64,000 nt of DNA from Euglena gracilis. Its lineage: Eukaryota. Positions 12,990-53,267 of this stretch are shown here, piece after piece. The translations under genes and the position numbers were made by a program. The stretch lies in assembly GCA_039621445.1 (NCBI GenBank), contig CP154954.1, forward strand, positions 39,145,816 to 39,209,815, read 5' to 3'. Under the pieces are notes generated by a model that was not told the origin of the DNA, searched no databases, and saw only the letters and a program-made list of their open reading frames with translations. Numbering within the stretch: position 1 is the stretch's first letter; each line of letters starts with the position of its first letter.

Positions 12990-13301
12990 AGTGTACGTCT
13001 GATTCCCAATTGCCCTTTCCCAATTCCCAAAAGCCTTCGCTTTCGCCTTGGCGCACTTACTTGGGAACTGAAAATCAGAGTAACAGAAAACCCTTTTCCC
13101 ACTTCCCAAGAAGCAAAGCACAGAGCAATGCAGGGAGGACGGACTGGATATCCAAGTCCGGTCTGGAGAAAAGGAAGACAAACAGAATAAAGAATACCAC
13201 CTGTGGAGAGAGAAGGGGCACCCATTAGGAAATCCTAATAGGATCTGCTTCCATCCTAACTTCCTCAACGGAAGGGGACAGAAGCATACGCCTGGTACAC
13301 A
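12990..13301 (-). repeat. 3' LTR of element A
   Basis: Near-identical to 42619-42931 (about 4 differences by eye); terminal inverted repeat GTGTAC...GTACAC. Confidence 0.95.
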
Positions 13302-13311
13302 TCCCCCTCCC
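13302..13311 (-). promoter_or_regulatory. Polypurine tract of element A
   Basis: Minus-strand GGGAGGGGGA abutting the 3' LTR. Confidence 0.85.
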
Positions 13312-14121
13312 AGGGCTATGCCCGATTTCCTCTTTGGACCAGGCATTCTGGCCACAGGCCTTTCGGACACAGACCTGGTCTGTGGGAGGTGCACCCTGGC
13401 GCATCCACAGGGGCCCTTTCCGTCGCACAGGGGTCCACTCAAAAAGGGGGGCGGAAAGGAGGGGGACCCAAAAGCCCAAAACGAGCAAAATGGTTTCACC
13501 TACTTTGCGGTGGCTTATGGGTGTATAGTATACTATAGCCCACTGGTGAAAATGGGGCTGGCAGGTTTCCTTGCCAAGCAAACCCATCCACCCAGTTTGG
13601 GTGTGCTAAAGGCACTTGGGGTTGGTCCATGGGCATTCCGGGAATACCCATGGGGAGGGTGTGGAAGGAGGGGGCCTCTGACCAGTCAAAACTGGGCAGG
13701 GCGCATGGCCAGTCAAACCTGACCACGCAAAAGAAAAGTCCTACTCTACAAAACCAACTGCCGGCGACAGCATTTGTCCCGGGGGGAAAGTAGAGAGGAG
13801 TGGGGGGTTGGCTTAGGCCAGAAAAGGTGCTGCCTGGCAGCCTGAAGGCCTCAAACGGCCAAAAAGAAAAAGGGAAAGGAAAGAAAAGAGGCCTTCGGCC
13901 CTGTGCGCTGCGTGTCGCAAGCCCGCGAGAGGGGAGAGGGGAGAGGGGTGTGCATGCATGCGCACGGAATCCTGCACATGGCAGCATCCCGGTGGGAACT
14001 TACTAGCGGCGAATACCGCAAAGGGTCTTCGAAGGGTTGCTCGGGCGAATACCCGAACAAGGGTTCAGGCGAATACCTGACGAGGGTTCTGAAAGACGCC
14101 GCATTGGCGCTGACAGACACC

Positions 14122-17100
14122 TCACCTGCCTCTATTGTCTGGGCGTTCGCGTACCTCACGCCAGTAGTCGTGTTGAGGGTCCCCTAATGGGTCCTCGACC
14201 AACTCCAGTTGGCGTGGGGAACGTGGTGGAGCTGATTCACTCCGAATGATGTTGAGCTCCGGATCGTTGGCATCAAAGGAAGGGGTCTCCCATTCCTTGA
14301 TCCAACTGTCCGGCAGCTTCTCCCTGGTACGGTCAGCATGATGCTGAAGGTACCGTTGGAGGTGCTCCCAGAAAATTCTGGGCAGCATCACCGGCCAGAT
14401 GATGTAATTCATCCGGGGGTGATTCGCAGGCACCTGCGGGGCATCCCCGGGGTCTGCTTGAAGTTGACGTCATACGCCCACCTCGCTGTCCGAGCTCTTG
14501 CGGTATGGGGCCGTAATACAGCCGCCAACCAACCTCTGAAGTCCACCAAATCGTGTTCTTCAGGAGGCCAAAGTGGCAAGGCGTATCCGCCATGCTGACG
14601 CTTGAAGAACAGGGGGTAAACCTGTGTATCCCAGTCGCCATCAGTCCAGAGGTAAGGCACTCTTACCCTGGCGTGTTCCTCGACGGCGAGGCGCATTGCC
14701 CCAGCGTCGATCTGGAACTCACGGGCCATTCCCGTGTGGCGGTAGCTTTCTACCTTTCGGAAGTCGCTGTGTGGCACTCGCCACATACGAGCGCCACACA
14801 GTTCGGCACAAATGCCCTGTGATGGAACGTCGTGGATTGCACCTGCCGCTTGCACACATGCACAAGTGGCTGGTTGTGCCGCACATGGTGGCACACGGTG
14901 CACGTCCAGGCAAAGGACGTGCCGTGCTGGAAATCCAACACGCAGTCCTCACCGAAGTACTTTGCCAGTGCTTGGGGTGAGCGCCTGTTCCAAAATGTCC
15001 AGGTGTGTTCCGGGACATAGTGGAAAGGTTCTCCTCGGACGAAGAGGGGCTAAATCCATCGATTCAGTGACCATTTCTGGTGCCGAATAGCAGCCAGCTT
15101 CCTCGTCCTTTCTTCCACGGTGCCTAGGCTGGTCAGGATATCCTGAGCCCAGAGCAGGGCATCCACAGACACGGGAGGTGAAGCAGGTTCATCCTGCTCC
15201 TCATCCGTCGAACCGGCGGAAGATTGGGTCTGTCGACCACGAGCTTTACCTTTCGGTTTGCTCTGGCCGTACCCGGACGATGCAACGGCCGAATAGTCGT
15301 GCAATGTCGTAGGGCCTTTTGGCTGTCCGCCGGTCTGGCCTCCAGCGCCACCTTTCGGTGGTGGTTTCCCATCACCGCCTTGGACAGGGGGCTTACAGGG
15401 TGCAGCACCCGGCTTGCCTCCTTTCGGCTTCGCACTCCCGGAATCAGGAGGCGATGGCTGCGGCTTACTCCTGGTATCAGGAGCAGGTTTCGCTGGAGCA
15501 GACGATTGTCGTCAGGGCGAAGCGGGCATCATGACCGCTGGATCGCGCATGACGCTCCGAGGCGTTGGTACGCGTTCCTGGGGTTGTTCAGCCGGCGTCC
15601 GTCGAGCAGGTTCATCCTGCCCGCGGGGGCGTGGGACTGTGGTTGTCACCGGAACCGGTGCTTCCACAGGCCCTGACACTCCCAGAAACTCTCCCATTGT
15701 CATCGGGGTGTCAGAGGGTCTGCGCGGTGTCGGTGGTCGTGGGGGTATTTCCTCCACTTCCATTTCGACGTCTGGCCGAGGAGGTTGATCCTCCACAACC
15801 GCTGGCGCAGGTGCTACTGGAGGTTGATCCTCCGTTGTAGCCGTTACGACAGATGGCTCTGTCGGCCGGGGTTCATCTCCTGATGGTGGTTGCACTGGTG
15901 CCGGAGATGGGGGTGCGGGGACACCGACATCTGGTGTCTCCACGACCTCGGCGGCGGAGCTTGATGCTACGCCTCCACCTCGTGGCGTTAGTGCAGCAGC
16001 CACGGCAGTAATGCCAGTGACCACGGCGCCGAGTACACGGCCTCCTAATGAGGTTCGTGCTGTGGGGCTGGCGGGTTCCTCGGGGATATCCTCGACGACC
16101 ACACCAGTCACCACGGCTTCAGGCTCAGCCGTCGACACAGGCGCTGCAGCCATAGGTGTATCCCCTATGGGTGCTTCGTCTGGCCGAGGCTGTGCCGGAG
16201 TAGGCAGAGCAGCGTAGAGGATATCCTCGACGTTCTCGCCTTCCTCCTGGGGGAGTTCCTCGTCTCCACCTGTCGGTGGACAGACGGGAGCCGTCGCAGG
16301 GGCCGGGGAAACTGATCGTTCCCCTGCCACTCGCGGGGCAGAGACGAAGGACACTGCCGTTCCTGTCGGAGATGGCGGCGCTGCCTCCAGAATGGTGACG
16401 GAGGGGCTGCGTTCGCGTTCCTCCCGCCGCGGAATCGCGGTGGTGGAAGCGACGGACGCCTCACGTCTCCTTCGCGCCAGAGGTTCATCCTCCGGGGCGA
16501 TGAAGGTGCGCAGATCCTCGAGTGAACGAGGATCGTCGGGGTGCCATCGGCATCCTTGAGCATCCGCCAGCCTGTAAAAGGCCAGCGTGCTGCTGCTGGG
16601 GCGGTTGGGCCAGGGTGGTGGCCATGATGGCTGCACCCAGGCATTGGCAGGCCTGTTCGGGCCCAGGAATCCGCGGTAACGCGTGTCTTCCCGGACCTCG
16701 AAAAACCCTTCCTCGAACTCCTGCACGCATGCCAAAATCGGCATACCCAGGTCGAGGATGGCCTTCGGGTAATTCATCAGCTGGAGGAATACCTCCCAGT
16801 CGAGGGTACCGCCAAACTGTCGCCTCAAATGTTCTTCCAGGTCGATACCGGCCAGGTGCCAGTTGGGGCGCAGGTCGGCGATGACCCGACGACGACGAGG
16901 TCCCTCAACGGGGTCGCCGTAGTCTGGTGGCAGACTTTCCATACCTGGTCCATCGTCCTGGGGGTCACGGAGACGTATATACACCTCCATGACGTAGGTG
17001 GTCCAGGCTCGCCACCAGAACTGCTGCAGCATAAAAATACGCTGCTTGTGGACGCGGCGACTTCTGCCCTTGACATCCGGGGCGTCGCGGCACACATGCA

Positions 17101-19442
17101 TAAGCATGCGGCGTCCCATCCCCAGGCCCGGGTTATCCCGAGGCGGTGGAAGGCTTCCACGCAAGCCGAATCCCCAGAAGTCGACAGGAAATTCCTGCAG
17201 GCAATACTTACAACAGAGGTCATACCTCTGTGGGTAAGCCAGGGAAACGCGCTGAACGCGGAAGGTTGAGCCGTAATGGCTCACCAGCCGCACCTGGAGG
17301 ATGTTGCACCACAACACCTCAATCAGGCGTCCTACTTCGGGGTGCAGCGGAAAGTATCTCCACTGGACTCCGAGGGGTCCTACTGAATGGATACATTCGA
17401 GGTAGGCCTTCAGCATCCGGGCCAACACCTGCTGGTCCCGGAATGCCAGTCCCAACTGGTGCAGATAACTGCGACCAGTGGAGTCGCTGAAGAGACCCCA
17501 GTTCTGGCAGGGGTATCCCAGCAAAAACCATAGCTCCCAAAAGCCCGGCTGGGCATCCAGCAAAGGTCTGCACCTTCACCTTCGAAGGCGTACAGATCTA
17601 TTCCGTAATGGAATAGTCTGACTCTGTTCTCGCTGTGGTGTAATACCACATCGATGACTGTCTCTGGAGGAGTGACGGGGCGGTTTCCTGCAACATGGTA
17701 ATCATGCTGCATTCGCCAGCCTTCGTCTTCCAGCTCCTCCTTGAACCTGAGCATATGCTCAAAGTCCGAGAGGACTTCTGCTGGTTCTTCCTCCTCCTCA
17801 CGGGCTGTACCCTTACCCTTGCCCTCACCTTTGCCTTTGCCGGCCACACCTTTGCCTTCTCCCTTGCCTTTTCCCTCAGCCTTACCTTTGTCCTTCCCCG
17901 TCTGGTGAATACCAGCAGGTCGGGCGCTCGGTGCGGCAGCAGTCGGTTCGGTACCTTCCCATTCCTTCTCTGGGGAGGGGCCTTGCCGTTCCGCTGCACG
18001 TCGCGGTGATGGCGTGGCTGGGCGCTGGCTAGGAGCCTGGCGTGGGCTTGGTTTCGGCGTAGTGGGTCGCGGCTCCTTCCATACCGGAGGGATCGGCGGT
18101 GGCATTGCGGCAACAGGACGGCTCATTGCTGCCTGTGCCTCTGCCGCTGGTTGTCTAGCCAGGGTATCCTGGCTGGCTTCCACCTGCATTGCCGAACCGC
18201 CTTCCGCGTCCCCTGGGGTGGGTCGCCTGGGCTGTGGGGTAAGGTCCTCCGTAGCCCTATGGCGCTTCAGGGTGGCAGGTAATCCTGCCGCTCCTGCCGG
18301 GGGCTCACCGGGTAATACCGGGGTTGCCACCCGCAGCTGCGGTTTGTACGGATATGGGGTGTATCCACGGCCCTGAAGGGCAGCCAGCCAGGAATAATAC
18401 CTCGCCCGGTGCTCTTCAGACGCGAATACTGGCTCCTGCAGGAAATGCCGAGCAAGTTCATCCTGCTCGGTTCCCGGAGGTGTCATGTGGTAGTAGGGAG
18501 CCTCCTGCCGACGCGGGACATCCCCGGTTTGGACAGGAGGTGCACTGGGCGGTCGGGTTGCCGCACGGTGGGGAGGTTCATCCTCCACCACTATGGGCTC
18601 CACCTGCCGCCGTGGCTCAACGCCAGGGGCAGGGGCGACCGGTGATGCCTCTGGCATCCAGTGCGTGAACATGTGTTGGACGTATGCCTCAGGGGGCACG
18701 TCCGACTGTCCGGATGGGAGCACGCGTGCGCCACGTGGGTAGTCCGCGTGCGTCGCGTACTGCGGGGCAAATTGCTCCGCTGGCGGCACGTGCGGCGGCA
18801 TTCGCTGCGGCGAGGGCGGGCGAGCAAATATTCTCGTCATCCCAGGTGGGACATGCACAGCCTCACCTACCGGTGGGGGCGTGTGCTCACGCATGTGCAC
18901 GGTGTGGGATCCCACCGGCGTCTGCGTTTGCAGCATGGGCGGCATATACACGCCCAGGTCCATCATGGTCTCGCCAGGCTCGAATCGGAATCGAATGCCG
19001 ACGAGAAACACCGTCTCCCTGTCATCAGGGCCTGACCACAGGGACACCACTGAGCCACAGGGGTGTTGGCTACCACCAACAACTGAGCGCAGTATGCATC
19101 CCAAAGGGCTTGCATAAAGGGCTCCGTTGGAGGGTGTGCGCACATACGCATCGCCCGCTCCAACGTCTCCGTAGTGCGGAAGATCATCTCTCCCGCATAC
19201 GGGGGCAGCCGCAATCTGCGCTGCACTGGTGGCTGGGGTGCCGGCTGATGGACGGCTGATGGATCTGGTACCGCATATGCGGACCGGCTGCTGGTAGCCG
19301 CGGCGAATACGGGGGCTGGAACCCTTTCAGCATGTGGGGCACCCGGAATCGGGACCTCACCATACTGAGGGTACTGGGGGTATGGCGCGCCCGGAGGCTG
19401 CGGCCATATTGGACCTGGTCCTGGTCCGCGTCAAGGCAGCAT
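14122..19442 (-). pseudogene. Long accessory ORF(s) of element A, unknown function, frameshifted
   Basis: Tiling minus-strand ORFs 19226-18963, 19143-17410, 17563-15512, 15435-15133, 14941-14750, 14903-14409 and 14433-14122 between pol and the 3' LTR. Confidence 0.65.
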
Positions 19443-19636
19443 GATGCTACCCGAACGACGACGACAACGAAGGATAACCTTGTTGTCAGTCGCTTTGAGT
19501 GCTAGGCACTGAAAAAAGAGATGCTTCTATCCTTATCAAAAACTCTGTGAGAAAGACAGAAGATGCAGTGCAGGGGGGGGGGTATAAACGCGAAAAATTC
19601 ACATAAAACACACACATTCTCCAAAACGAAATCGTT

Positions 19637-21499
19637 TCAGAAAGTGTTTATGTTTATGTCTATGTTATTGCGCTTGTTCCACAGCTTCCAATCCTGTTGG
19701 ACGTATCCAACAAAACTTGATGCTGGCTCCCAGGTGTCCTCCTCTGGCCCATACCCTTTCCAGCGAACTTTCTAGTAGTGCACACCCCTGTCGACCTTGT
19801 GGTCTATTATATTATCAACCACAAAGTCGTCCGTTTCAGGTAATCTGGAACGGGGCTTGAAATATAAGCAGGGGATAGCTTTTCCGTCAGGGGGGTTTAG
19901 GTATGGTTTGAAATCGTCCATATGGACGTCCTCAATCCCGTTGGGCAATGCAACTTTATATCGCCCGCTACTACCTAACCTCTCCAAAATTTCGCATGGG
20001 CCGAGCCAAAGAGGGTCTAGCTTGGAAGATTGCATGCGGGTGCAGTTATTCCGTACCCACACGCGGTCACCTGGACTATACATAGGTGTGTTGAAATTTT
20101 GTAAAAACGATTTCCGTTTGTTGGAATGAATTTCTGTGATACGTGATTGAACTTCAGAGCGGAGTTGATTCCACTTCTGCAAACCACGTTTCACAGCTGA
20201 CACTACTTTGGGCGGGTCTCTCCGAGGGGATATCCCCTATGGCCGGAGGGTCTCGTCCGAAAACAATTTTATACGGTGAGTGTGGTAATACCAACCCTGG
20301 CAAGGTATTGATTTAAAATAAACACCAATGAAGAATGGGTATCGAATTCTTACCCGAGTCAGCCAGTGAAAGGCGTAGCATATTGACAACGGATTTCACG
20401 GCTGCCTCAGCTCCACCGTTGCCTTTCGGGCGGTATATAATGGAAAAATGCTGCTCAATACCGAGTAAACCGCATAAAGTTGTGAAAAACCGCAAAGAGA
20501 TCAAGTGATCTTGATCACTCACGATTTCGTTCGGTAAACGCATTAAGCAGATACATTTCTCCAGGAATATGGATGCCAAAATTTGGGCTGTCAACCCTGC
20601 TTTCCGGCATGGAATTGCTACTATGTACCACTCAGCCGACAGACGACAACGAAAACGTAATCGTAAATTTTGTCATCTGATCCTTTGCAAGGTTCGAGTT
20701 CGAGAAAATCCATGCAGAGGGACGTAAAAATGTCCGGTGGTACGGGGAAAAAGTCCATCGTACCAGGGGGGGTACCTGTGCGCGGTTTCACAGCCTGACA
20801 AATTGGGCACCGCTGCGAAATTTGCAAACAGCGCGAATATAAATCTTTTTCACTCAGGGTTGTGCAATATCTGCGACCCACCAGTGAAAGAAGTTTGGGG
20901 GCCCCAGGGTGACCATGGTTGTGATAGCTCAAAATCACATCATCAACCAGGTCTTGGGGTATACAATATTTATAACCAGAATCATTCCGGAAGATAGGTC
21001 GCAATGGTGATAGAGAGTAATTCTCTATGGACTCACCATTACGGAGTCTATTCACAATGGTACTATATACAGGGTCACGCGAATAATCCCATTCGCGGAA
21101 AAATAGGGGGGTAGGAGTTTCCGTACGCGTAATGCGACGGGGTCCGGCAGTGCGTCCACGCCGGCGCCTTCCACGCAATGGTGAAATGGCAATGCTGCAA
21201 TACACCCGGGAAACGGGTAGTGAATCGAGCATGTTGTCCACAGCGTCGGATCGACGTGCGAACTGGTCAGCCCCATGGCTGCCATGAACAGTCGCATCAC
21301 CCTCATCCGGGTCCCCAGGATAATACCAGGGGGCTCGGCTGTGAGGATCCGCCACTTTTTGCGTATGACCTGGGGTATAAACTACCACCAGGTTAAACTG
21401 GCTCAAGAACTCATGCCATCGGCATCGTCTGCCAACTGATGACATGGCCTTGTTCAGGTCCTCGGTATACCAGTGTTGAAGGCTCTCATGATCCGTCAA
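19637..21499 (-). pseudogene. pol: Element A pol, 3' part: end of RNase H, integrase, chromodomain
   Basis: VLTDHESL; H-x3-H...CPIC zinc finger; MDF, IVSDQD, GNGGAE (DDE); WLGPCEI (GPY/F); FVVDNIIDH...Y*KVRWKGYGPEEDTWEP (chromodomain). Confidence 0.93.
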
Positions 21500-21503
21500 C
21501 ACC

Positions 21504-22594
21504 CGTTTCACACCCGTGCTGCCGTGTCCCCCGGCAGCGCTGGGGTGAAGCGGAAACCCCCGCCCCGGGCCAGTTTCCGGCGTAGGATCGTTTTTTGGCT
21601 CCTCGAGCCGACTTGTGTCGGAAATTTTTTCCCATTCTGGCCCCCCCTGTGGCCGAAACTGGGCCATCATTTCCAAGGAGGAACTTCCCAGTGGACCCTC
21701 CCCGACCCCTGAGGGGGGTGTCACTGGGATCTCCAAGGGGGGTGCCTTTGGGGTTTCAACCCCTCCCTGCTCAGCTGAACCAGTGAGAGCCAACACCCCC
21801 CCCCTGGGTGTCATTTCTCACAGTTTCTGGGCCAAAAAGGGGGTTTTGGGGTGAAAAATGGCCTGTGGTTGCCTGAGTTGAAGAGACCCACCCCCCTGCC
21901 CCTTTTCCCACAGATGAGGTGGGGGGAAGACAAACCTCTCCTTCTTCAAATGATTGATTTTGTTGATCTTCCATTGCAATTGAAATTCCAAACTCAATTC
22001 TTGATTGTAATTGGATGTATTTGCCCACAACAAGTACAATGGTGTAAAAGGTAAAGAGGAAAACCCTGTGAAAAGAAAATGATTTTGATGCCCTTGATGG
22101 GCAGTTAAATTTAGGATTGAGTGCGCTGATTCCTAAGCGCTCTCAAATCCCAAATTCTTGCCCATTGCATCAAAATCAACCAACCAAAGTCAAAATCAAG
22201 GTTTCCCCCCTTGATTTTGATAAATTATGCTGAATTCCATCATTATTGAGCTTTGCAAACCCCTGCAAAAACTCCAGGAACTCAGGCGCCAATCTCTTAA
22301 AATTCTGTTCCAAGCGCTTGCAAGCGCTCTCACCAAATCCAACATTTTCCCTTAAAACCAAAGGAGAAATGCATAAAAAGCTTAAATTGTGCTAAATAAA
22401 CTCAAAATAACCCTTTGGGAATACCTAGCATCACTCAATCTCTCTCCTTGCACAACCAAAGCATGGGCGCCCTAGGAGAGGGAATTTTAATGGAAATCTT
22501 TAGAAAGCCTTAAAATTAGAGCAAAACCGCCCTCAAAAGGCCTTCTAAAAGGGAAAAACTCCGCCGCCCGGCGGTCGACCTCAAACGGTCGTCA
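21504..22594 (-). repeat. 3' LTR of element B
   Basis: Near-identical to 33943-35029; starts TGACG on the minus strand directly after the PPT. Confidence 0.95.
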
Positions 22595-22605
22595 CTCCCC
22601 CCCTT
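22595..22605 (-). promoter_or_regulatory. Polypurine tract of element B
   Basis: Minus-strand AAGGGGGGGAG abutting the LTR. Confidence 0.85.
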
Positions 22606-22859
22606 GCGACGAAAGTCGGGGGTTTCACCCCCCCTCCTTCTCGCTTTCCTTGGGATGGGAATGAAAGACACTTTGAATTTTTGCAACGCAATTGCGATAA
22701 CATCGTTCGAGATCGTGCATAAGTGGCGGAACGGTGTGGAGGAATCTATTAGGCCATAGATTCTATTCCACCACACCGAGCCCCCCCCCACGGTTCTCAC
22801 CACCGTGAAAGGAAATGGGGGCCCAACACCACTCAAAAAAATCCTTTCTTGAATGGATA

Positions 22860-29113: not shown

Positions 29114-29163
29114 GGGGGGAAGCCACTTCTACAACCGATTCCTCACCCATCCCCCCTGGTTCT

Positions 29164-42308: not shown

Positions 42309-42465
42309 AACTAAGCAGTTGTGCTGGCACCAGAGGGGCTGTAACGGGTAATACCGTACAGAGCCTTCCGGAGCTTGCTCGTCTGCTTAGACGTTGACTA
42401 GAAGCCGGGAGCTGACGCTGCGACCGTGATAACGGTGCAGGGGCCCTCCGCTGCCAGTCAGCGTA

Positions 42466-42931: not shown

Positions 42932-45900
42932 CCAGCAGCCCTTTGCTTGCTTCGGCCGCACCAGCAGCCATTTGCTTGCTTCGTCCGCACTAGCAGCCAT
43001 TTGCTTGCTTTTGCCGCGCCAGCAGCCATTTGCTTGAGTCGGACGCACTAGGAGCCGTTTGCTTGCTTCGACCGCGCCAGCAGCCATTTGCTTGCTTCAG
43101 CCGCGCCAGCGGCCATTTGTTTGCTTCGGCCGCACTAGCAGCCATTTGCTTGCTTCAGCCGCCCCAGCAGCCATTTGCCTGTTTCGGACTGGCCACTTTC
43201 TTGCTTTGGTGTGCTTGCAACCATTTGCTTACTTCAGACCGGCCATTTGCTTGCTTCGGCCGCGCCAGCAGGCATCTGCTTGCTTCGACCGCACTAGCAG
43301 CCACTGGCTTGCTTCGGCCGCACCAGCAGCCATTTGCTTGCTTCGGCCACACCAGCAGTCATTCGTTTGCTTCAACCGCACTCGCAGCCATAGCCATTAG
43401 CTTGCTTCGGCCGCACCAGCATTTGCTTGCTTTGACTACACAGGCCATTTGCTTGCTTCGGCCGCACTAGCGGCCATTTGTTTGCTTTGGCCTCGCCCGT
43501 GGCCATTTGCTTGCTTCGGCTGCGCCAGCAGCCATTTGATTGCTTCGGTCGCACTATCGGCCATTAGCTTGCTTCGGCCGCACTAGCAGCCATTTGCTTG
43601 CTTCGACCACACCGGTCATTTGCTTGCTCCGGCCGCGCTAGCGGACATATGCACGCTTCGGAAACGCTATCAGCCATTTGCTTGCTTCGGCCGCGCCAGC
43701 AGCCATTTGCTTGCTTTGGTGTGCTTGCAACCATTTACTTGCTTCAGACCAGCCATTTGCTTGCTTCGGCCGCCGTATCAGCCATTTGCTTGCTTCGACC
43801 ACACCGGCAATTTGCTTGCTTCGGCCGCACTAGCATCCATTTGCTTGCTTCGGCCGCACTAGCAGCCATTTGCTTGCTTTGGTGTGCTTGCAACCATTTA
43901 CTTGCTTCAGACCAGCCATTTGCTTGCTTCGGCCGCCGTATCAGCCATTTGCTTGCTTCGACCACACCGGCAATTTGCTTGCTTCGGCCGCACTAGCATC
44001 CATTTGCTTGCTTCGGCCGCACCAGCAGCCATTTGCTTGCTTCGGCCGCACCAGCAGCCATTTGCTTGCTTCGGCCGCACCAGCAGCCATTTGCTTGCTT
44101 CGGCCGCACTAGCAGCCATTTGCTTGTTTCAGCCGCACTAGCAGCCATTTGCTTGCTTCAGCCACACCAGCAGCTACTAGCTTGCTTCGGCAACACGGCC
44201 ATTTGCTAGCTTCGGCCGCCTAGCAGCCATTTGCATTTGCTCGCTTCTGCAACGTTAGCAGCCATTTCCTTGCTTCGGCCACACTAGCAGCCATTTGCTT
44301 GCTTCGTCCACACCTGCCATTTGCTTGGTTCGGCCGTACCAGCAGCCATTTGCTTGCTTCGGACCGACAATTTGCTTGCAGCCATTTGCTTGCTTCCATC
44401 ACACCGGCAAACATTTGCTTGCTCCGGACCGGCCATTTGCTTGCTTTGGTGCGCTTGCAGCATTTGCTTGCTTCGGCCACACCAGCAGTGATTTGTCTGC
44501 TTCAACCGCACTCGCAGCCATAACCATTAGCTTGCTTCGGCCGCACCAGCATTTGCTTGCTTTGACCACACAGGCCATTTGCTTGCTTCGGCCGCACTAG
44601 CGGCCATTTGCTTGCTTCGGCCGCACTAGCGGCCATTTGTTTGCTTCGGCCGCACTAGCAGCCATTTACTTGCTTCGGCCGCACCAGCAGCCATTTGCTT
44701 GCCTCGGCCGCACTAGCGGCCATTTGCTTGCATCGGCCGCCGTAGCAGCCACTTTTTTTTGCTTTCTTCGGCCATTTTTGCTTGCTTTGGCCGCACTAGC
44801 AGCCATTTGCTTGCTTCGGCCGCACTAGCAGCCATTTGCTTGCTTCGGCCACACCGGCCATTTGCTTGCTTCGGGCGCGCCAGCAGCCATTTGCCTGCTT
44901 CGGACTGGGCACTTTCTTGCTTTGGTGTGCTTGCAACCATTTGCCTATTTCAGACCGGCCATTTGCTTGCCTCGGCCACACCGGCCATTTGCTTGCTTCG
45001 GCCGCACCAGCTGCCCTTTGCTTGCTTCGGCCGCCGGTGAAGCCATTTGCTTGCTTCGGCCGCGCCAGCAGCCATTAGCTTGCTTCAGCCACACCGGCCA
45101 TTTGCTTACTTCAGCCGCACCAGCGGCCATTTGCTTGCTTCGGCCGCCGGTGAAGCCATTTGCTTGCTTCGGCCGCACCAGCGGCCATTTGCTTGCTTCG
45201 GCCGCACCAGCAGCCATTTGCTTGCTTCGGCCGCACCAGCAGCCATTTGCTTGCTTCGGCCACACCGGCCATTTGCTTGCTTCGGCCGCACCAGCAGCCA
45301 TTAGCTTGCTTCGGCCGCGCCAGCAGCCATTTGCCTGCTTCGGACTGGCCACTTTCTTGCTTTGGTGTGCTTGCAACCATTTGCTTACTTCAGACCGGCC
45401 ATTTGCTTGCTTCGGCCATACCGGCCATTTGCTTGCTTCGGCCGCACCAGCAGCCCTTTGCTTGCTTCGGCCGCGCCAGCAGCCATTTGCTTGCTTCGGT
45501 GGCGCCAGCAGCCATTTGCTTGCTTCGGCCGCGCCAGCAGCCATTTGCTTGCTTCAGCCGCGCCAGCGGCCATTTGCTTGCTTCGACCGCACTAACAGCC
45601 ATTTGCTTGCTTCAGCCGCGCCAGCGGCCATTTGCTTGCTTCGACCGCACTAACAGCCATTGGCTTGCTTCAGCCGCCCCAGCAGCCATTTGCCTGCTTC
45701 CGACTGGCCACTTTCTTGCTTTGGTGTGCTTGCAACCATTTGCTTACTTCAGACCGGCCATTTGCTTGCTTCGGCCGCGCCAGCAGGCATCTGCTTGCTT
45801 CCGCCGCACTAGCAGCCATTGGCTTGCTTCGGCCGCACCAGCAGCCATTTGCTTGCTTCGGCCACACCAGCAGTCATTTGTTTGCTTCAAACGCACTCGC

Positions 45901-46650
45901 AGCCATAGCCATTTGCTTGCTTCGGCCGCACCAGCATTGGCTTGCTTTGACCACACAGGCCATTTGCTTGCTTCGGCCGCACTAGCGGCCATTTGTTTGC
46001 TTTGGCCTCGCCCGTAGCCATTTGCTTGCTTCGGCCGCGCCAGCAGCCATTTGCTTGCTTTGGTGTGCTTGCAACCGTTTGCCTGCTTCAGACCGGCCAT
46101 TTGCTTGCTTCGGCCGCCGTATCAGCCATTTGCTTGCTTCGACCACACCGGCAATTTGCTTGCTTCGGCCGCACCGGCAGCCATTTGCTTGCTTCGGCCG
46201 CACCAGCAACCATTTGCTTGCCTCGGCCGCAGTAGCAGCCATTTGCTTGCTTCGGCCGCACTAGCAGCCATTTGCTTGCTTCAGCCACACCAGCAGCTAC
46301 TAGCTTGCTTCGGCAACACCGGCCATTTGCTAGCTTCGGCCGCCTAGCAGCCATTTGCTCGCTTCTGCAACGTTAGCAGCCATTTCCTTGCTTCGGCCAC
46401 ACTAGCAGCCATTTGCTTGCTTCGTCCACACCCGCCATTAGCTTGGTTCGGCCGCACCAGCAGCCATTTGCTTGCTTTGGACCGACAATTTGCTTGCAGC
46501 CATTTGCTTGCTTCCATCACACCGGCAACCATTTGCTTGCTCCGGACCGGACATTTGCTTGCTTTGGTACGCTTGCAGCCATTTGCTTGCTTCGGCTAAA
46601 CTAGCAACCATTTGCTTGCTTCGGCCACACGGCCATTTGCTTGCTTCGGT
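42932..46650. repeat. ~29-bp satellite, right arm
   Basis: Same unit and orientation as 8440-12989; resumes in register after the LTR. Confidence 0.98.
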
Positions 46651-48281: not shown

Positions 48282-51200
48282 GCAGTTGGAGGAGCGACTT
48301 CCCCGTTTGGAGCAGAAAACCTGCTATTATGACGCGAATCAGGTTGGATTCTCCAATCTGAGCGTGAAAGTCGCAAAAATGGCACAACGGCAGGAATCCC
48401 TGCAGTTGTATTTGCAGTCCGACATTGGCGGGATTAACTCCGCCATTGCGGGTTTGCAACAAAGCTATTCCGCACTTTCCCACCGAGTTCCGGACATTAG
48501 TGGTATTCAGACTGCTATTGGGGAACTCCAGACCTGGTATGCATCGGTGTCTACCAAAATTACGGAAATGCAGTCTTTGCCTGCAGGTTCCAGTTCACGG
48601 ATTATCGAGAACCCTGATTTCAAGGCATTTTATGACAAAATGCTCACTGACAATCAAGAAACCTTGCAAGATTTCTGCAACAGCCTATTACGGCTTGAGG
48701 AATCGGTGAATCGGAATGCCCAATCCACGCCAAATTTTTTGTGCAAAAGTCAAACTTCTCATTGACACTGGTTGTCGCATTGCACTACTTTTTCGGTTCG
48801 GGTTGATACCGACCCCCCTCTTGGTGAAAGCCAAGAAGCCGATCAAAATTACGACGGCTGACAACGCCCCCATGTGCGGTGGTGACTTGGGATGCATTTT
48901 GGACTTAGTCCTACCCCTCATCCCCAAGCACCACTCACACCCCCCCCAACCGCAAAATTTTCCGGATAGCTGGGGATACGAATCCGGAATCCATGGGTCT
49001 GACGTAATTCTGGGATACCCCTTTTTACGTCAGCACCGGCTGGTAGTGGATTGCCACTCCCACGGTTTGCGCACATCACCATTCTCTTCATTGCCCCCCA
49101 AACCTTCATCACCTGTGGCGTCATCCACGACAGCCACCAATCTTTCCACACCGTTTTCGAAAACTTTTACCCCGTTACCAACCACACCTACCAACGTTTT
49201 CCACACCGGGTGTACCGAGAGAGTTCACCTCCTGCCCATCCACACACCAACTTCCGTTCCCCATGAGGCAGGGCAAGCAAGTAGCGGTACCCCTCGTTCC
49301 ACTGGGTTACAAGACGAAAGCCCAAAGGCCTGAAGTGATCACGGTGTCGAGTAGTCGCCCAGCTGCACCAATACCCCGTTTTCCACCAGATGTATCGCTT
49401 TCAGATACACCTGTACGCCCCCCAGCAGCTACACAAGCGCAACCCAACTTTTACACACAACCCCACCAGACAAACATGCGCGACCAGGACCACTACTCCG
49501 ACACTTCCTACCAATGTGTGCACTGTAGGAGAATTTCCGTCCAGCGAGAATTCGATTGTGGATGTTTAGTCCAAACATCAACACTAATCCCGATTTCGCG
49601 AACCCATACACTTGGTTGCGGATCGCAATGCGCGACCGTACATCAAGTGCTGCAACAACGAGGAATTGCCTTGTTGTTTGGGACCGCGAAATCCGTGTCA
49701 CAAACCTCCGCCACCTCCATCTGGCATGATATGTACTGGGTATGCACCCATCCAACCCATCAACCCTTGGGAATGCCCCTTAGGAGTGTGGATGACACAC
49801 CCTTGGCCTATGTTTGCGGATCCCTGAATGGCGTTACCGCTCTTCAACCTGCGAACCAGGTGGACACATACGCGATGCGCGTATGGAACGCATTTAATTT
49901 TGGTCAATACCGTATTTTGGAGGAATGGTTCTCCAAAATCGCGGTTTTGGCTGATTCCTTCGATTTGTCGTTGGAAATTGATGCGTTTTCATCACAAGCA
50001 CATGCACGCTTGTCGCGACATTGGTCGCGACACTCCAACACATTCCTTAAAATTTGGGGTGATACGGTGCTTTGGTTGAACCCTCCCCCTAAACTTATTC
50101 CGGATGTGGTGGAGAAAGTACTACGCGATGAAGCGCGAGGAGCTCTCCTCATACCCGCCAATCCGAATGCGGATTGGTTTCACCAATTCTCCTATGTATG
50201 TTTTCATTGGTGGGATTTACCCGCTGATGTACCACTATTCGAGGATTTTTGTGGTATATTATTACCACCTGTTAAAGAAATTATTTTTCACGTTTGTTTC
50301 CTCTACGCATTCGGAATATCCGATTTGCGTGTGCCAAAATACCTTGGTACCAGTAGGGATGCCACACTCTCAACGCAGATTTCTGCGGTTATTGAGAGTG
50401 CGGACCAACACCCCAAGTCTGCTGACTATTGTTCGTGAATTACTCGCGAATTCCATGGTGTACTGGATAACCCAGTTTACGCCCGCGACATCAACCCCGC
50501 GATTCACGGTCCGTTCGGTATTTGCAAAATCGAGCTCAAGGATGGCGCTAAGCCCATGCACCGGAAATTCTTCCGTTGTTCGGTTAAACGCGAACAAGCT
50601 CTCAACGAGATGATTGAGAAGCTCATCCAGCGGAAGTGGTGCTGGTGCTGGATTACCGGTACCTGAACTCCCAAACGAAGGATGACCCCTTCCCGTTACT
50701 GCTGATCGAAGATTTGATCGCCAAACAATCGGATAACCGGTTGTGGTCAATCTTTGATCTAGAAGACGGTTTTCATCAGATGCATTTGCACCCTGATTCA
50801 CAACCGTACACGGCATTCGTGACATCCAAGGGTGTGTACCAATGGACGGTACTCCCTATGGGTGTTAAGAATGGCCCAGCCATGTTTCAACGCATGATCC
50901 AGTGGGTTTTGCGCGAATTACCGTTTGCTCTGGTGTACATCGATGATGTACTGGTGGGAACCCAACCGCCATCCGCGAAATCGGGCAAGGATATCCTCGA
51001 ACCGCATTATCGCGATGTGCGGGCGGTATTATCCGCGTTCAAAAAGCATGTGCTTTTTGTCGAGGGTTCCAAAATGCACCTGTTTCGCAAAATTATTAAG
51101 TTTTGCGGGCATATCCTGAGCAACGGGCAGCGTAAAGCCGCACCCAGCAAGATGGAGGCCATTAAAAAATGGACTCCTGAGGTCATTAAGACCTTAACGC

Positions 51201-53267
51201 ATTTAAAGGGATTTTTGGGATTAGCCCAATACTACGCGATTTACATGAAAGATTTCGCGAAAATCGCGGTACCCCTAACCCGACAACTTAAAAATCGGAC
51301 ACCCGATAACGCAAAAGTCATTTGGATAACCAAATGCGCGAGGCCTTGAATAAAATCAAGGACTTGCTCCTCGAGAACGTGGTTCTCGATATCGCGGATC
51401 CATACAAGCCGTACGTCCTGGAGGTCGACAGCAGCGATTACGCTGTTGGCGGTGTTCTTAGCCAGCATAATGCGGCAAATGAACTCCGACCTGTGGCTTT
51501 CTTCAGCAGGAAGCTACAGGGCGACAATGGGAAAGGACAGGTTAAATGGAGCATTCGCGAAAAGGAGACATATGCCATTGTGCTAATTCTCCAGAAAATC
51601 CGCAGCTGGATAGCCAGCAGCCTGGTCCAGATACTGGTGTTGACGGATTATGAGAGCCTTCAACACTGGTATACCGAGGACCTGAACAAGGCCATGTCAT
51701 CAGTGGGCAGAAGATGCCGATGGCATGAGTTCTTGAGCCAGTTTAACCTGGTGGTAGTATATACCCCAGGTCATACGCAAAAAGTGGCGGATCCTCTCAG
51801 CCGAGCCCCCTGGTATTATCCTGGGAACCCGGATGAGGGTGATGCGACTTTTCATGGCAGCCATGGGGCTGACCAGTTCGCACGTCGATCCGACGCTGTG
51901 GACAACATTCTCGATTCACTAGCCGTTTCCCAGGTGTATCGCAGCATTGCCATTTCACCATTGCGTGGAAGGCGCCGGCGTGGACGCACTGCCGGACCCC
52001 GTCGCATTACGCGTACGGAAACTCCTACCCCCCTATTTTTCCGCGAATGGGATTATTCGCGTGACCCTGTATATAGTACCATTGTGAATGGACTTCGTAA
52101 TGGTGAGTCCATAGAGAATTACTCTCTATCACCATTGCGACTTATTTTCCGAAATGATTCTGGTTATAAATATTGTATACCCCAAGACCTGGTTGATGAT
52201 GTGATTTTGAGCTATCACAACCATGGTCACCCTGGGGCCCCCAAACTTCTTTCACTGGTGGGTCGCAGGTATTGCACAACCCTGAGTGAAAAAGATTTAT
52301 ATTCGCGCTGTTTGCGAATTTCGCAACGGTGCCAAATTTGTCAGGCTGTGAACCCGCGCAGAGGTACCCCCCCTGGTACGATGGATTTTTTCCCCGTACC
52401 ACCGGACATTTTTACGTCCCTCTGCATGGAGTTTCTGGAACTTGAACCTTGCAAAGGATCAGATGACAAAATTTACGATTACGTTTTCGTTGTCGTCAGT
52501 CGGCTGAGTGGGTATATAGTAGCCATTCCATGCCGGAAAGCAGGGTTGACAGCCCAAATTTTGGCATCCATATTCCTGGAGAAATGAATCTGCTTAATGG
52601 GTTTACCGAACGAAATCGTGAATGATCAAGATCACTTGATCTCTTCGCGGTTTTTCACGACTTTGTGCGTTTTACTCGGCATTGAGCAGCATTTGTCCAT
52701 TATATACCGCCCGAAAGGCAACGGTGGAGCTGAGGCAGCCGTGAAATCCGTTGTCAATATGCTTCGCCTTTCACTGGCTGACTCGGGTAAGAATTGGATA
52801 TCCATTCTTCATTGGTGTTTATTTTACATCAATACCTTGCCAGGGTTGGTATTACCACACTCACCGTACGAAATTGTTTTCGGACGAGACCCTCCGGCCA
52901 CAGGGGATATCCCCTCGGAGAGACCCGCCCGAAGTAGTGTTAGCTGTGAAACGTGGTTTGCAGAAGTGGAATCACTCCGCTCTGCAGTCCAATCACGTAT
53001 CACAGAAATTCATTCCAACAAACGGAAATCGTTTTTACAAAATTTCAACACACCTGTGTATAGTCCAGGTGACCGCGTGTGGGTACGGAATAACCGCACC
53101 CGCATGCAATCTTCCAAGCTACGTCCTCTTCGGCTCGGCCCATGCGAAATTTTGGACAGGTTAGGAAGTAGCGGGCGATATAAAGTTGCCTTGCCCAACG
53201 GGATTGAGGACGTCCATATGGACGATTTCAAACCGTACCTAAACCCCCTAGACGGAAAAGCTATCCC
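48282..53267 (+). mobile_element. pol: Second copy of family A (5'-truncated, internally deleted): gag fragment, PR, Dam-like MTase, RT, RH, IN
   Basis: Near-identical reverse complement of the A internal region; LLIDTG, LNPPP, YIDD, VDSSD and CQIC motifs; interrupted at 53267 by LTR C. Confidence 0.95.
49890..50310 (+). pseudogene. Dam-like DNA methyltransferase domain, second copy (open in one frame)
   Basis: IDAFSS at 49977-49994; NPPP at 50079-50090; KLIPDVVEKVLRDEARGALLIPANPNADWF...WWDLP. Confidence 0.78.

What the first reader, a model, noticed from the sequence alone, without database searches (positions are those of the whole stretch)
12990..53267. Candidate system: two co-resident chromovirus families pairing a DNA methyltransferase with a chromodomain integrase, one nested in the other
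Seen: A and B have unrelated LTRs and different gag regions, and each has an MTase of a different class at a different polyprotein position (B: C5 before PR; A: Dam-like after PR). Both also have a C-terminal chromodomain, and B sits inside A. Inference: repeated, independent MTase capture suggests selection in this host for retroelements that mark their own DNA, for example to evade or mimic host surveillance or to compete with other elements, combined with chromatin-guided targeting.
Basis: inference. Interest (0 to 1): 0.85.

Follow-up and report, generated by a model that had tools for sequence, protein, structure and literature searches.

The report
Nested methyltransferase-carrying retrotransposons, both defective
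Two different LTR retrotransposon families, each carrying a DNA-methyltransferase-like domain and a chromodomain, lie one inside the other in a satellite-rich stretch; this kind of element has recently been described, and the copies here are broken.

Summary
Element A (12990-42931, minus strand) is a Ty3/gypsy chromovirus with a DIRS-type Dam-like domain between protease and RT. Element B (21504-35029) is a different chromovirus with a compact C5 cytosine methyltransferase between gag and protease. B sits in A's RNase H with a 4-bp target duplication, and a second, truncated A copy (48282-53267) shows the empty site.

Three things qualify the finding:
- Both elements are dead here. A has four in-frame stops and a frameshift. 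B has a 3.8-kb internal inversion that splits its methyltransferase and removes the catalytic cysteine, plus frameshifts.
- A's Dam-like domain reads NPPP instead of NPP(Y/F/W). None of 10 sequences in A's subclade keeps the aromatic residue, against 13 of 14 more distant relatives, so it is probably not an active adenine methyltransferase.
- The nesting looks incidental to a repeat nest. I found no sign of a functional pair.

Retrotransposons with DNMT, DAM or both plus a chromodomain are already in print (de Mendoza 2018; Fernandez-Moreno 2026 preprint).

Two points may be new. CpG observed/expected is 0.50 in B against 0.92-0.98 in A, with the step exactly at the junctions. The degenerate catalytic motif runs through a whole DAM-chromovirus subclade.

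Verdict: a new member of a known kind, of moderate interest.

The parts
8484..12988 (.). 29-nt satellite array on the left side of element A
   Evidence: Tandem Repeats Finder: period 29/58/87, about 74% matches; repeat families D1-D9.
12990..13301 (-). Element A 3' LTR, preceded in sense by a purine-rich tract (PPT)
   Evidence: 313 nt, 98.7% identical to 42619-42931; PPT seen.
13302..19639 (-). A's 3' region of unknown nature (6.3 kb, GC 0.60), with long minus-strand ORFs at 17410-19326 and 15512-17575
   Evidence: No Pfam family, no Atlas hit, no repeat elsewhere in the window.
19640..19825 (-). A chromodomain, interrupted by one in-frame TAG at 19772-19774
   Evidence: Pfam Chromo 41.7 bits, E 1.1e-10, read with X at the stop; sequence.
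19826..21499 (-). End of A's RNase H plus the integrase (H2C2 zinc domain, SH3-like domain)
   Evidence: Pfam Integrase_H2C2 E 1.3e-7 and SH3_Tf2-1 E 4e-7; 96% identical to copy 2.
21504..35029 (-). Element B (13.5 kb), nested in A, with target duplication CACC at 21500-21503 and 35030-35033
   Evidence: Junctions and the empty site in A copy 2; LTRs 21506-22595 and 33945-35030, 98.8% identical; PBS-like TGGTA... after the 5' LTR and a PPT before the 3' LTR.
24897..25842 (-). B integrase core (C-terminal part) and chromodomain
   Evidence: Pfam rve E 1.3e-4 and Chromo 24.1 bits; aligns with P0007.
25843..29683 (+). Inverted segment of B: C-terminal half of the C5 methyltransferase (about 25843-26230), protease, RT, RNase H and the N-terminal part of the integrase. 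Frameshifts near 27799 and 29112.
   Evidence: ORFs lie on the opposite strand. The custom DNMT profile matches positions 161-368, E 7.9e-71. Contigs of all 4 public runs laid join 25842-25844 to 29680-29683 on opposite strands, which is the un-inverted form. Indels relative to other copies are at 27799 and 29112.
29684..30304 (-). N-terminal half of B's C5 methyltransferase (motif I DLFAGTGS through ...SPP). The catalytic Cys and about 8 profile positions are missing at the junction.
   Evidence: Custom DNMT profile positions 75-152, E 1.6e-25; alignment with 36 relatives.
30336..32900 (-). B gag-like ORF (coiled-coil, CCHC knuckle at its end)
   Evidence: Translation; no significant similarity to A's gag.
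35030..36673 (-). A RT and RNase H, cut at 35030 by the B insertion
   Evidence: Pfam RVT_1 E 2e-24 and RT_RNaseH_2 E 2.2e-24.
36537..36866 (-). A Dam-like (DIRS-type) domain with tetrapeptide NPPP. A frameshift follows before the RT frame.
   Evidence: Pfam Dam 22.4 bits; BLASTP E 1e-11 and 2e-11 to the Dam regions of P0024 and P0039; motif table and alignment; profile coordinates.
37707..38021 (-). A aspartic protease (D-T-G at 37983-37991)
   Evidence: Translation; the same region aligns in relatives P0153-P0159.
38982..42386 (-). A gag region: one long frame with in-frame stops TAG (40788-40790), TGA (39660-39662) and TAA (38982-38984). The CCHC knuckle lies in ORF 37949-38698.
   Evidence: Adjacent ORFs in one frame; stop codons read.
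42463..42618 (-). A primer-binding-site region (TGGTAGCAGA...), part of a 65-nt unit repeated 2.5 times
42619..42931 (-). Element A 5' LTR
42930..46649 (.). The same 29-nt satellite on the right side of A
48282..53267 (+). Second copy of A: 5'-truncated, lacking 2.6 kb (38023-40668 of copy 1), and cut at its 3' end by element C. Its Dam-like domain is at 49887-50255 and also reads NPPP.
   Evidence: blastn 92-97% identity to copy 1; Pfam Dam E 4.4e-4; profile coordinates; motif.
53268..64000 (-). Element C: a repeat-flanked retroelement (53268-53626 and 63654-64000) inserted into A copy 2, with an RT ORF at 55270-58092
   Evidence: Pfam RVT_1 E 4.2e-10.

Best explanation
The region is a nest of retroelements inside a 29-nt satellite array. 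I see no sign that it is a functional unit.

What the elements are:
- Element A belongs to a family of Ty3/gypsy chromoviruses ordered gag, protease, Cys motif, Dam-like domain, RT, RNase H, integrase, chromodomain.
- Element B belongs to a second family ordered gag, compact C5 cytosine methyltransferase, protease, RT, RNase H, integrase, chromodomain.
- B inserted into A's RNase H. A third element (C) inserted into a second copy of A.

How they most likely work (inferred):
- In intact B-family members the methyltransferase is made as part of Gag-Pol. It could methylate CpGs of the element's own cDNA or of new insertions, as proposed for other DNMT-bearing retrotransposons. B's halved CpG content fits a long history of CpG methylation.
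- A's Dam-like domain descends from the DIRS-type adenine methyltransferase. In A's whole subclade it has lost the aromatic residue of the catalytic (D/N)PP(Y/F/W) motif, and often the Asn, while the rest of the domain stays conserved. It is therefore most likely retained as a non-catalytic or altered module.
- The chromodomains would steer integration into heterochromatin, which fits the pile-up in satellite DNA.

Both copies in the window are dead. B's methyltransferase is split by a 3.8-kb inversion that other copies in public runs do not show.
For: Anatomy:
- LTR pairs, PBS and PPT for both elements; target duplication and empty site for B.
- Domain order from Pfam.
- Full-length relatives show the same orders: P0007 has DNMT, RT, RNase H, rve, Chromo, and P0153-P0158 have protease, Dam-like, RT, integrase, chromodomain.

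B's domain is a C5 methyltransferase:
- 9 of 16 relatives score at or above the PF00145 cut-off.
- The PC Cys and the ENP Glu are in the nearly invariant columns (>=90%) of a 38-row alignment.
- The AlphaFold model of P0001 has block-mean pLDDT 84-98 over about residues 61-260.
- Every row listed from the Foldseek PDB search is DNMT3A/3B/3C, DNMT1 or M.HhaI, best E 2.3e-8.

A's Dam-like domain:
- Homology shown.
- An aromatic residue is present in 0 of 10 sequences in A's subclade, against 13 of 14 other relatives.
- Within the subclade the domain is still 52% identical where RT is 77%.

No Dam-like match lies in B or C and no significant DNMT match lies in A or C; the only other row is a weak DNMT match in C, E 0.0099.

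Defects are documented. The canonical un-inverted joint appears in all 4 runs laid.

Abundance: 5182, 4957, 345 and 60 contig pieces were laid in the four runs. 20 of 24 listed runs, from 15 studies, hold the stretch or part of it.

CpG observed/expected: B 0.50 (417 observed, 840 expected), A copy 1 0.92, A copy 2 0.98.
Against: - No methylation data were examined, so self-methylation is inferred.
- CpG depletion is not specific to B. Element C, with no methyltransferase found, is also 0.49, and 6601-8400 is 0.49. Depletion may simply be the default state of repeats in this genome, which makes A the outlier.
- Between the two A copies, dN/dS is near 1 in the Dam-like domain (1.15; 4 synonymous and 15 non-synonymous differences) and in the protease (1.06). 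Both copies are dead, so this mostly reflects neutral decay.
- Among the 37 in-frame sites of the 40 best-supported differences between this B copy and other copies (130 more were not shown), the conserved DNMT core has only 3 synonymous and 2 non-synonymous changes, too few to show selection. The DNMT-protease linker has 0 and 8. The rest of pol has 18 and 6.
- Loss of the aromatic residue does not prove loss of activity. That the aromatic is needed is recalled knowledge of amino-methyltransferases and was not tested here.
- The single-sequence fold of A's domain was useless (pLDDT 37.8).
- The host is not known to me: run and organism names are coded and no genome is held.
Confidence: 0.85

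Rival explanations
1. One reading: the two families form a selected 'system' in which each marks its own DNA (5mC for B, 6mA for A) to evade or mimic host surveillance, and the nesting reflects this relationship.
For: Two classes of methyltransferase-like domain occur in two chromovirus families of one genome. Both families have many relatives. Relatives exist that carry both domains in one protein: P0024 (DAM-DNMT-protease) and P0039 (DAM-protease-DNMT). The published interpretation is similar (bioRxiv 10.64898/2026.05.21.726589, discussion read).
Against: Each element has its own LTRs. B has its own target duplication, and A copy 2 lacks B. A second, unrelated element (C) is nested in A copy 2, so nesting is common at this locus. 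A's catalytic motif is degenerate throughout its subclade. Both copies are broken.
Confidence: 0.1
2. A plus B is really one composite element of the 'EpiLTR' type, with DAM, DNMT and a chromodomain in a single retrotransposon.
For: DAM-like, DNMT and chromodomain sequences lie within 30 kb on the same strand. Such composite elements are reported (preprint, section 'EpiLTRs' read), and DAM+DNMT proteins exist (P0024, P0039).
Against: There are two distinct LTR pairs and a 4-bp duplication around B. A's RNase H reading frame continues across the excised B. The empty site is present in copy 2. There are two full sets of protease, RT, RNase H, integrase and chromodomain.
Confidence: 0.02
3. A's Dam-like domain is still an active adenine methyltransferase despite reading NPPP (HPPA, NPPI and so on in its relatives), or it methylates another substrate such as an RNA-DNA hybrid.
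For: The domain is conserved across elements whose RT cores are 70-84% identical (52% mean identity over about 124 residues). The preprint reports 6mA enrichment on DAM-LTRs in three species, and no activity of canonical-motif DAMs in E. coli, so activity assays are uninformative so far (results read).
Against: 0 of 10 subclade sequences keep the aromatic residue and 4 of 10 also replace the Asn, while 13 of 14 outgroup relatives keep the aromatic. Relative to RT, the domain diverges faster in the subclade (52% against 77%) than among canonical-motif relatives (46% against 56%).
Confidence: 0.25
4. The inversion inside B is an assembly error and not a real rearrangement of this copy.
For: Contigs in all 4 runs laid show the canonical, un-inverted joint. 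None of the 31 listed pieces bridges either junction in the window's arrangement. The family is highly repeated, which invites misassembly.
Against: Both breakpoints are consistent with a single inversion. Short stretches are missing at both junctions: about 8 profile positions of the methyltransferase and a few residues of the integrase. That pattern is typical of break repair, not of a flipped contig. Only 31 of more than 10,000 pieces were listed, so support for the window's form may simply not have been shown.
Confidence: 0.3

Closest known systems
DAM-LTR retrotransposons, especially chromovirus-like ones (Fernandez-Moreno et al. 2026, bioRxiv 10.64898/2026.05.21.726589; abstract, introduction, results and discussion read; supplements not available)
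   Same: A Ty3/gypsy-type LTR element with a chromodomain and a DIRS-derived Dam-like domain in pol. The domain is homologous to PF05869-positive relatives.
   Different: The preprint states that the Asn-Pro-Pro triplet and the following aromatic residue are well conserved in DAM-TEs. A and its 8 closest relatives examined have no aromatic there. I could not test whether A's host or lineage is among the five DAM-LTR lineages named.
EpiLTRs (same preprint): single LTR elements with DAM, DNMT and a chromodomain in Cymbomonas tetramitiformis and Euglena gracilis
   Same: The same three kinds of epigenetic module occur at this locus. B's methyltransferase is 40-43% identical to the one in the DAM+DNMT proteins P0024 and P0039.
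   Different: Here the DAM-like and DNMT domains belong to two separate elements with separate LTRs. The preprint itself notes that nested insertions may create apparent chimeras in Euglena, and this locus is an example of how that could happen.
KnitGypsy-Dnmt3 of Klebsormidium nitens (de Mendoza et al. 2018, PMC5890265, section read)
   Same: A Gypsy-type LTR retrotransposon with a C5 DNMT inside its polyprotein.
   Different: That DNMT is a Dnmt3 and no chromodomain is described in the section read. B's enzyme is a compact domain of about 210 residues that is remote by sequence from solved DNMTs (best DNMT hit in a PDB profile search E 4.2e-4, to DNMT1). I did not place it within the DNMT families.
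SymbioLINE-Dnmt and SymbioDIRS-Dnmt3 of Symbiodinium (PMC5890265, sections read)
   Same: A retroelement-encoded C5 DNMT. SymbioLINE-Dnmt shows reduced CpG content, which the authors read as possible self-methylation; B shows the same signature.
   Different: A different retroelement class (LINE or DIRS, not an LTR chromovirus).
Methyltransferase domain of DIRS1-like retrotransposons (cited in both papers; the primary papers were recalled and not read)
   Same: A's domain has the same core around the ...DAF... and ...W-x-N-P-P... motifs, and lies upstream of RT.
   Different: A has an integrase with a chromodomain and ordinary LTRs, with no tyrosine recombinase. Its catalytic tetrapeptide is degenerate.

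Membership tests
Ty3/gypsy chromovirus (element A) | Direct LTRs with PBS and PPT | tested here: met
   313-nt LTRs, 98.7% identical. TGGTAGCAGA follows the 5' LTR and a purine tract precedes the 3' LTR. That the PBS matches initiator tRNA-Met is recalled and not tested.
Ty3/gypsy chromovirus (element A) | Pol order protease-RT-RNase H-integrase, with a chromodomain at the integrase C-terminus | tested here: met
   Pfam RVT_1, RT_RNaseH, Integrase_H2C2 and SH3_Tf2-1; Chromo 41.7 bits against a 25.1-bit cut-off, read with X at the stop.
Ty3/gypsy chromovirus (element A) | Target-site duplication of 4-5 bp | tested here: inconclusive
   The flanks are variant satellite units and no clean duplication could be called.
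Ty3/gypsy chromovirus (element B) | LTRs, PBS, PPT and target-site duplication | tested here: met
   1090-nt LTRs, 98.8% identical. CACC duplication, with the empty site in A copy 2. PBS-like and PPT sequences.
Ty3/gypsy chromovirus (element B) | Chromodomain at the integrase C-terminus | tested here: inconclusive
   The window copy scores 24.1 bits against a 25.1-bit cut-off. Relative P0007, with the same architecture, scores 28.2 bits.
C5 cytosine DNA methyltransferase (PF00145) - B's domain | Passes the family's curated profile threshold | tested here: inconclusive
   Neither half in the window gives a PF00145 hit. 13 of 16 relatives scanned hit PF00145 at E<=0.01, 9 of them at or above 22 bits. 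P0003, P0024 and P0025 gave none.
C5 cytosine DNA methyltransferase (PF00145) - B's domain | Motif I (FxGxG), motif IV Pro-Cys nucleophile, motif VI ENV-type Glu | tested here: not met
   The window copy has motif I and ENP but lacks the Cys, which was lost at the inversion junction. In relatives the Cys and Glu are in the >=90% conserved columns. Canonical copies in public runs run on across this junction.
C5 cytosine DNA methyltransferase (PF00145) - B's domain | C5-methyltransferase fold | tested here: met
   Tested on relative P0001, not on the window copy. Block-mean pLDDT is 84-98 over about residues 61-260. Every row listed from the Foldseek PDB search is a C5 DNMT, best E 2.3e-8.
Dam N6-adenine methyltransferase (PF05869) - A's domain | Passes the curated profile threshold | tested here: not met
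   22.4 bits (copy 1, domain only) and 20.4 bits (copy 2), against a 28.1-bit cut-off. Homology still holds through P0039 (31.7 bits) and BLASTP E 2e-11.
Dam N6-adenine methyltransferase (PF05869) - A's domain | Catalytic (D/N)PP(Y/F/W) tetrapeptide | tested here: not met
   NPPP in both A copies. No aromatic in 0 of 10 subclade sequences, against 13 of 14 other relatives.
DAM-LTR (2026 preprint) | DIRS-type DAM domain inside a non-DIRS LTR retrotransposon | tested here: met
EpiLTR (2026 preprint) | DAM, DNMT and chromodomain within one retrotransposon unit | tested here: not met
   These are two elements with separate LTRs and a target duplication. There is no Dam-like match in B and no DNMT match in A.

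The most novel reading that the evidence does not exclude
Within one genome, two chromovirus lineages occupy opposite epigenetic niches.

The DNMT-bearing lineage (B) is methylated at CpG, possibly by its own enzyme, and has lost half of its CpGs.

The DAM-like lineage (A) escapes CpG decay (observed/expected about 1). Its Dam-like domain has become a conserved pseudo-methyltransferase: across a whole subclade it has lost the catalytic aromatic residue and often the Asn. It would act by binding, for example by recruiting or blocking host methylation machinery, and not by catalysis.
Probability: 0.3. Interest if true: 0.6.

Novelty: new member of a known kind. Interest (0 to 1): 0.4.

Why it matters
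Retrotransposons that carry DNA-methyltransferase domains are a recently recognised way for mobile elements to engage host epigenomes.

- **Nesting can mimic a composite element.** This locus shows, with clean junctions, a DAM-type and a DNMT-type chromovirus coexisting in one genome. Nesting like this can look like a single 'dual-methylation' element, which is a practical caution for domain-proximity surveys.
- **A testable exception to pocket conservation.** A whole DAM-chromovirus subclade has lost the catalytic aromatic residue yet keeps the domain. This runs against the reported conservation of the catalytic pocket and can be tested directly.
- **An unexplained CpG contrast.** CpG content is 0.50 in B against about 0.95 in A, with sharp steps at the junctions. 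Methylome data for the host could explain it.

Tried and rejected
- **Host genome.** None is held, so no census was possible.
- **Word-based protein search with A's Dam-like region.** No hit among proteins of near or longer length.
- **Single-sequence AlphaFold of A's Dam-like region.** pLDDT 37.8, unusable, so no fold search was run on it.
- **ESM Atlas, A's Dam-like region.** Best score 0.92, to an unnamed eukaryotic cluster. One cluster at 0.83 has 11% PF05869 members. A lead only.
- **ESM Atlas, A's 3' ORF.** No usable hit.
- **PDB sequence searches.** The two halves of B's methyltransferase gave nothing meaningful. A profile of relatives gave only weak hits: generic SAM-methyltransferase motif I at E 7.5e-6 and DNMT1 at E 4.2e-4.
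- **Two metagenome-contig scans** to obtain relatives' DNA for dN/dS. The first confirmed no relative. The second gave only L001 (1.7 kb, 56%) and L002 (27%), too little to use.
- **dN/dS between the two A copies**. Few differences and both copies are dead, so this is not informative on selection.
- **CpG context of differences**. 8 of 40 listed B sites and 31 of 167 A copy 1/copy 2 differences are CpG transitions, a modest enrichment that settles nothing.
- **Variant genetic code as the cause of A's in-frame stops.** Rejected, because they are a mix of TAG, TGA and TAA.
- **Rfam and tRNA scans of the window.** Nothing found.
- **Transcription.** I make no claim on transcription or habitat.
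- **Weak DNMT-profile match inside element C** (61316-61651, E 0.0099). Taken as chance.

Full report
**What the window is.** The window is eukaryotic repeat DNA, with GC about 0.5-0.6 over the elements and about 0.70 in the first 6 kb. No whole genome is held for it, and run and organism names are coded, so I do not know the host.

A self-comparison by blastn and the repeat finder give three pairs of long direct repeats:
- 12990-13301 and 42619-42931 (313 nt, 98.7%);
- 21506-22595 and 33945-35030 (1090 nt, 98.8%);
- 53268-53626 and 63654-64000 (95%).

A 29-nt satellite fills 8484-12988 and 42930-46649. Bases 1-6600 hold a GC-rich LINE with endonuclease, RT and RNase H.

**Element A (12990-42931, sense on the minus strand).**
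- The 5' LTR is followed by TGGTAGCAGA..., a primer-binding-site-like sequence. Its likeness to the 3' end of initiator tRNA-Met is recalled and not tested.
- The 3' LTR is preceded by a purine tract.
- The coding order is a long coiled-coil gag frame, a CCHC knuckle, a protease (D-T-G), a small Cys motif, a Dam-like domain, RT, RNase H, an integrase (H2C2, SH3-like) and a chromodomain.
- The chromodomain scores 41.7 bits in Pfam when its single in-frame TAG is read as X.
- This copy is defective. It has in-frame TAG, TGA and TAA stops in gag, a TAG in the chromodomain, a frameshift between the Dam-like domain and RT, and the B insertion.
- I could not call a target duplication, because the flanks are variant satellite units.
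- Between the pol stop and the PPT lie 6.3 kb of GC-richer sequence with two long ORFs. They have no Pfam or Atlas match, and I cannot explain them.

**Second copy of A (48282-53267, plus strand).** It is 92-97% identical to copy 1, lacks its 5' part and 2.6 kb of gag, and is cut in the integrase-chromodomain region by element C. It reads straight across the place where B sits in copy 1.

**Element B (21504-35029).** B is flanked by the duplication CACC and has its own PBS-like and PPT sequences. A and B are different families:
- blastn shows no LTR similarity;
- the gag frames show no significant similarity;
- RT is 38% and RNase H 41% identical.

B's outer parts read on the minus strand: gag at 30336-32900, the N-terminal half of a methyltransferase at 29684-30304, and the integrase core plus chromodomain at 24897-25842. 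The block 25843-29683 reads on the plus strand and holds the C-terminal half of the methyltransferase, the protease, RT, RNase H and the N-terminal part of the integrase. This is a single 3.8-kb inversion.

A profile built from 19 relatives matches the two halves at positions 75-152 and 161-368 (E 1.6e-25 and 7.9e-71). About eight positions, including the Pro-Cys nucleophile, are therefore missing at the junction.

**Evidence from public runs.** I laid the contigs of four public runs on 24900-30400. All four contain joints between 25842-25844 and 29680-29683 on opposite strands, which is the un-inverted arrangement. Loose ends at both breakpoints run on into sequence that the window lacks.

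None of the 31 listed pieces bridges a junction in the window's arrangement, but more than 10,000 pieces were not listed. The inversion is therefore either private to this copy or an assembly error.

The same call shows a 4-nt difference at 27799 and a 1-nt difference at 29112 relative to other copies. Both coincide with frame changes in this copy.

**What B's methyltransferase is.** Pfam does not recognise either half. An exhaustive HMMER search with the C-terminal half plus protease found 1689 clusters at E<=1e-3 and 714 at E<=1e-10. Of 16 relatives scanned:
- 13 hit PF00145 and 9 reach its cut-off;
- P0007 (2513 aa, from a metagenome) has DNMT, RT, RNase H, rve and Chromo in B's order;
- P0039 carries Dam, a peptidase and DNMT;
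- P0024 carries a Dam hit upstream of the same methyltransferase (sequences).

In a 38-row alignment the Pro-Cys, the Glu and Pro of ENP, and the DxDYC...GYxKPTR block are at least 90% conserved. An AlphaFold model of P0001 built with that alignment is confident over the domain. Every row listed from its Foldseek PDB search is a C5 DNMT: DNMT3A/3B/3C, DNMT1 or M.HhaI, best E 2.3e-8.

By sequence the family is remote from solved enzymes; the best DNMT hit in a profile search is to DNMT1 at E 4.2e-4. B's domain is therefore a compact C5 cytosine methyltransferase of a large retroelement-borne family. I did not place it among the DNMT1-6 classes.

**What A's Dam-like domain is.** Pfam PF05869 scores 20-22 bits, below the 28.1-bit cut-off. 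The region nevertheless aligns with the Pfam-Dam regions of P0024 and P0039 at E 1e-11 and 2e-11, with the W-x-N-P-P core in register.

A search with A's RT-RNase H among longer proteins gave 191 hits. The closest, at 60-87% identity, are from JGI and ENA metagenome assemblies. Fifteen of the 120 listed carry a precomputed PF05869 hit, most of them together with RVT_1 and Chromo.

I fetched 22 of the 120 and aligned the Dam-like region of 20 of them, together with P0024, P0039 and both A copies. P0233 and P0245 were left out because their NPPY domain is N-terminal in a different architecture.

| Group | Tetrapeptides seen | Aromatic kept |
|---|---|---|
| A copies plus the 8 relatives closest by RT | NPPP (both A copies), HPPL, NPSL, HPPA (twice), HPPS, NPPI (twice), NPPL | 0 of 10 |
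| The other 14 relatives | NPPF or NPPY, or CPPF or HPPF; one is NPPP | 13 of 14 |

The rest of the domain stays conserved. Within A's subclade the mean identity is 52% over about 124 residues where the RT core is 77%. Among canonical-motif relatives the figures are 46% and 56%.

In amino-methyltransferases the aromatic residue of motif IV stacks on the flipped base and the Asp or Asn contacts the amino group. This is established knowledge that I recalled and did not test here. I therefore read A's domain as most likely non-catalytic but retained. The single-sequence fold was too poor to add anything.

**No hidden second domain.** The two custom profiles find a significant DNMT match only in B and Dam-like matches only in the two A copies; the one further row is a weak DNMT match in C. 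The locus is therefore not one composite element.

**Composition.**

| Region | CpG observed/expected |
|---|---|
| B (417 observed, 840 expected) | 0.50 |
| C | 0.49 |
| A copy 1 | 0.92 |
| A copy 2 | 0.98 |

In 2-kb windows the value steps from 0.42 to 1.12 at the B/A junction near 35000. The 2018 paper used the same measure and found reduced CpG in SymbioLINE-Dnmt, which it read as possible self-methylation (PMC5890265, passage in section 7 read through 'find').

Here the depletion is shared by C, which has no methyltransferase that I could find. It may be the default state of repeats in this genome, with A as the exception. I cannot decide between these readings.

**Selection.** The two A copies give dN/dS of 1.15 in the Dam-like domain, 1.06 in the protease, 0.60 in RT-RNase H and 0.47 in the integrase, all on few differences. 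Both copies are dead, so this mainly shows decay.

For B, one search listed the 40 best-supported differences from other copies and did not show 130 more. Of those 40, 37 lie in frames:

| Region | Synonymous | Non-synonymous |
|---|---|---|
| Integrase core and chromodomain | 9 | 2 |
| RT, RNase H and integrase N-terminal part | 4 | 0 |
| Protease and RT | 5 | 4 |
| Conserved DNMT core | 3 | 2 |
| DNMT-protease linker | 0 | 8 |

Purifying selection is visible on pol. The numbers are too small to judge the methyltransferase. Conservation of its catalytic residues among distant relatives is the better argument.

**Abundance.** Of the 24 runs listed, 20 hold the B stretch or part of it, 18 of them with at least half of its sampled words, from 15 studies. 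In run X1, 5182 contig pieces were laid on 5.5 kb: 2275 at 99% or more, 1983 at 95-99% and 924 at 90-95%. B's family is therefore highly repeated. Whether it is transcribed is open, because the RNA labels of X15-X19 are guesses.

**Literature.** Three full-text searches and reading of two papers show the following.
- DNMT-bearing LINE, DIRS and Gypsy elements were described in 2018 (PMC5890265; abstract, sections 6 and 9, and passages read).
- A May 2026 preprint (10.64898/2026.05.21.726589; abstract, introduction, results and discussion read) describes DAM domains in chromodomain-containing LTR elements, and 'EpiLTRs' that combine DAM, DNMT and a chromodomain.
It also warns that nested insertions may create apparent chimeras in Euglena.
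- It states that the catalytic pocket is conserved in eukaryotic DAMs. A's subclade is an exception to that.
- Its supplements, which may list such variants or DNMT-only chromoviruses, were not available to me.

**Verdict.** The 'system' is not supported. The kind is known. What this locus adds is a clean example of nesting that can mimic a dual-methyltransferase element, a DAM-chromovirus subclade with a degenerate catalytic motif, and an unexplained CpG contrast between the two families.

Noticed in passing
window 1-6600: A GC-rich (0.70) non-LTR retrotransposon on the plus strand with endonuclease (Exo_endo_phos), RT and RNase H ORFs. CpG observed/expected is 0.85.
   Followed up: partly
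window 8484-12988 and 42930-46649: About 8 kb of one 29-nt satellite (with higher-order periods 58 and 87) lies on both sides of element A, so A inserted into a satellite array.
   Followed up: partly
window 13302-19639: A 6.3-kb GC-richer block lies between A's pol stop and its PPT. It has minus-strand ORFs of 638 and 687 aa with no Pfam, Atlas or in-window match. It could be extra ORFs, captured DNA or an LTR-less insertion.
   Followed up: partly
window 42463-42624: The region holding A's primer-binding site is a 65-nt unit repeated 2.5 times, so the PBS-like sequence occurs more than once.
   Followed up: no
window 53268-64000: Element C has direct repeats of at least 359 nt flanking an RT-only ORF (940 aa) and a 370-aa ORF without Pfam hits. 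No integrase was found. It is inserted in A copy 2 and has CpG observed/expected 0.49. Its class was not determined.
   Followed up: no
window 37300-37400 region of ORF 36528-38126 (minus), and relatives P0151, P0153-P0159: A small conserved Cys motif (C-x2-C ... D-F-D-C-G-C) lies between the protease and the Dam-like domain in A and its close relatives. It may bind zinc.
   Followed up: no
P0039: A 719-aa partial protein with Dam, a peptidase and DNMT is filed under the plant Genlisea aurea (EPS62093.1). All other close relatives looked up come from metagenome assemblies, so its true source organism is uncertain.
   Followed up: no
window 22953-23178: A C-rich tandem repeat of 65-72 nt lies in B's long 3' untranslated part (22596-24896).
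   Followed up: no
P0171: A more distant Dam-bearing relative (45% identity in RT) also reads NPPP, so the aromatic residue seems to have been lost more than once.
   Followed up: no
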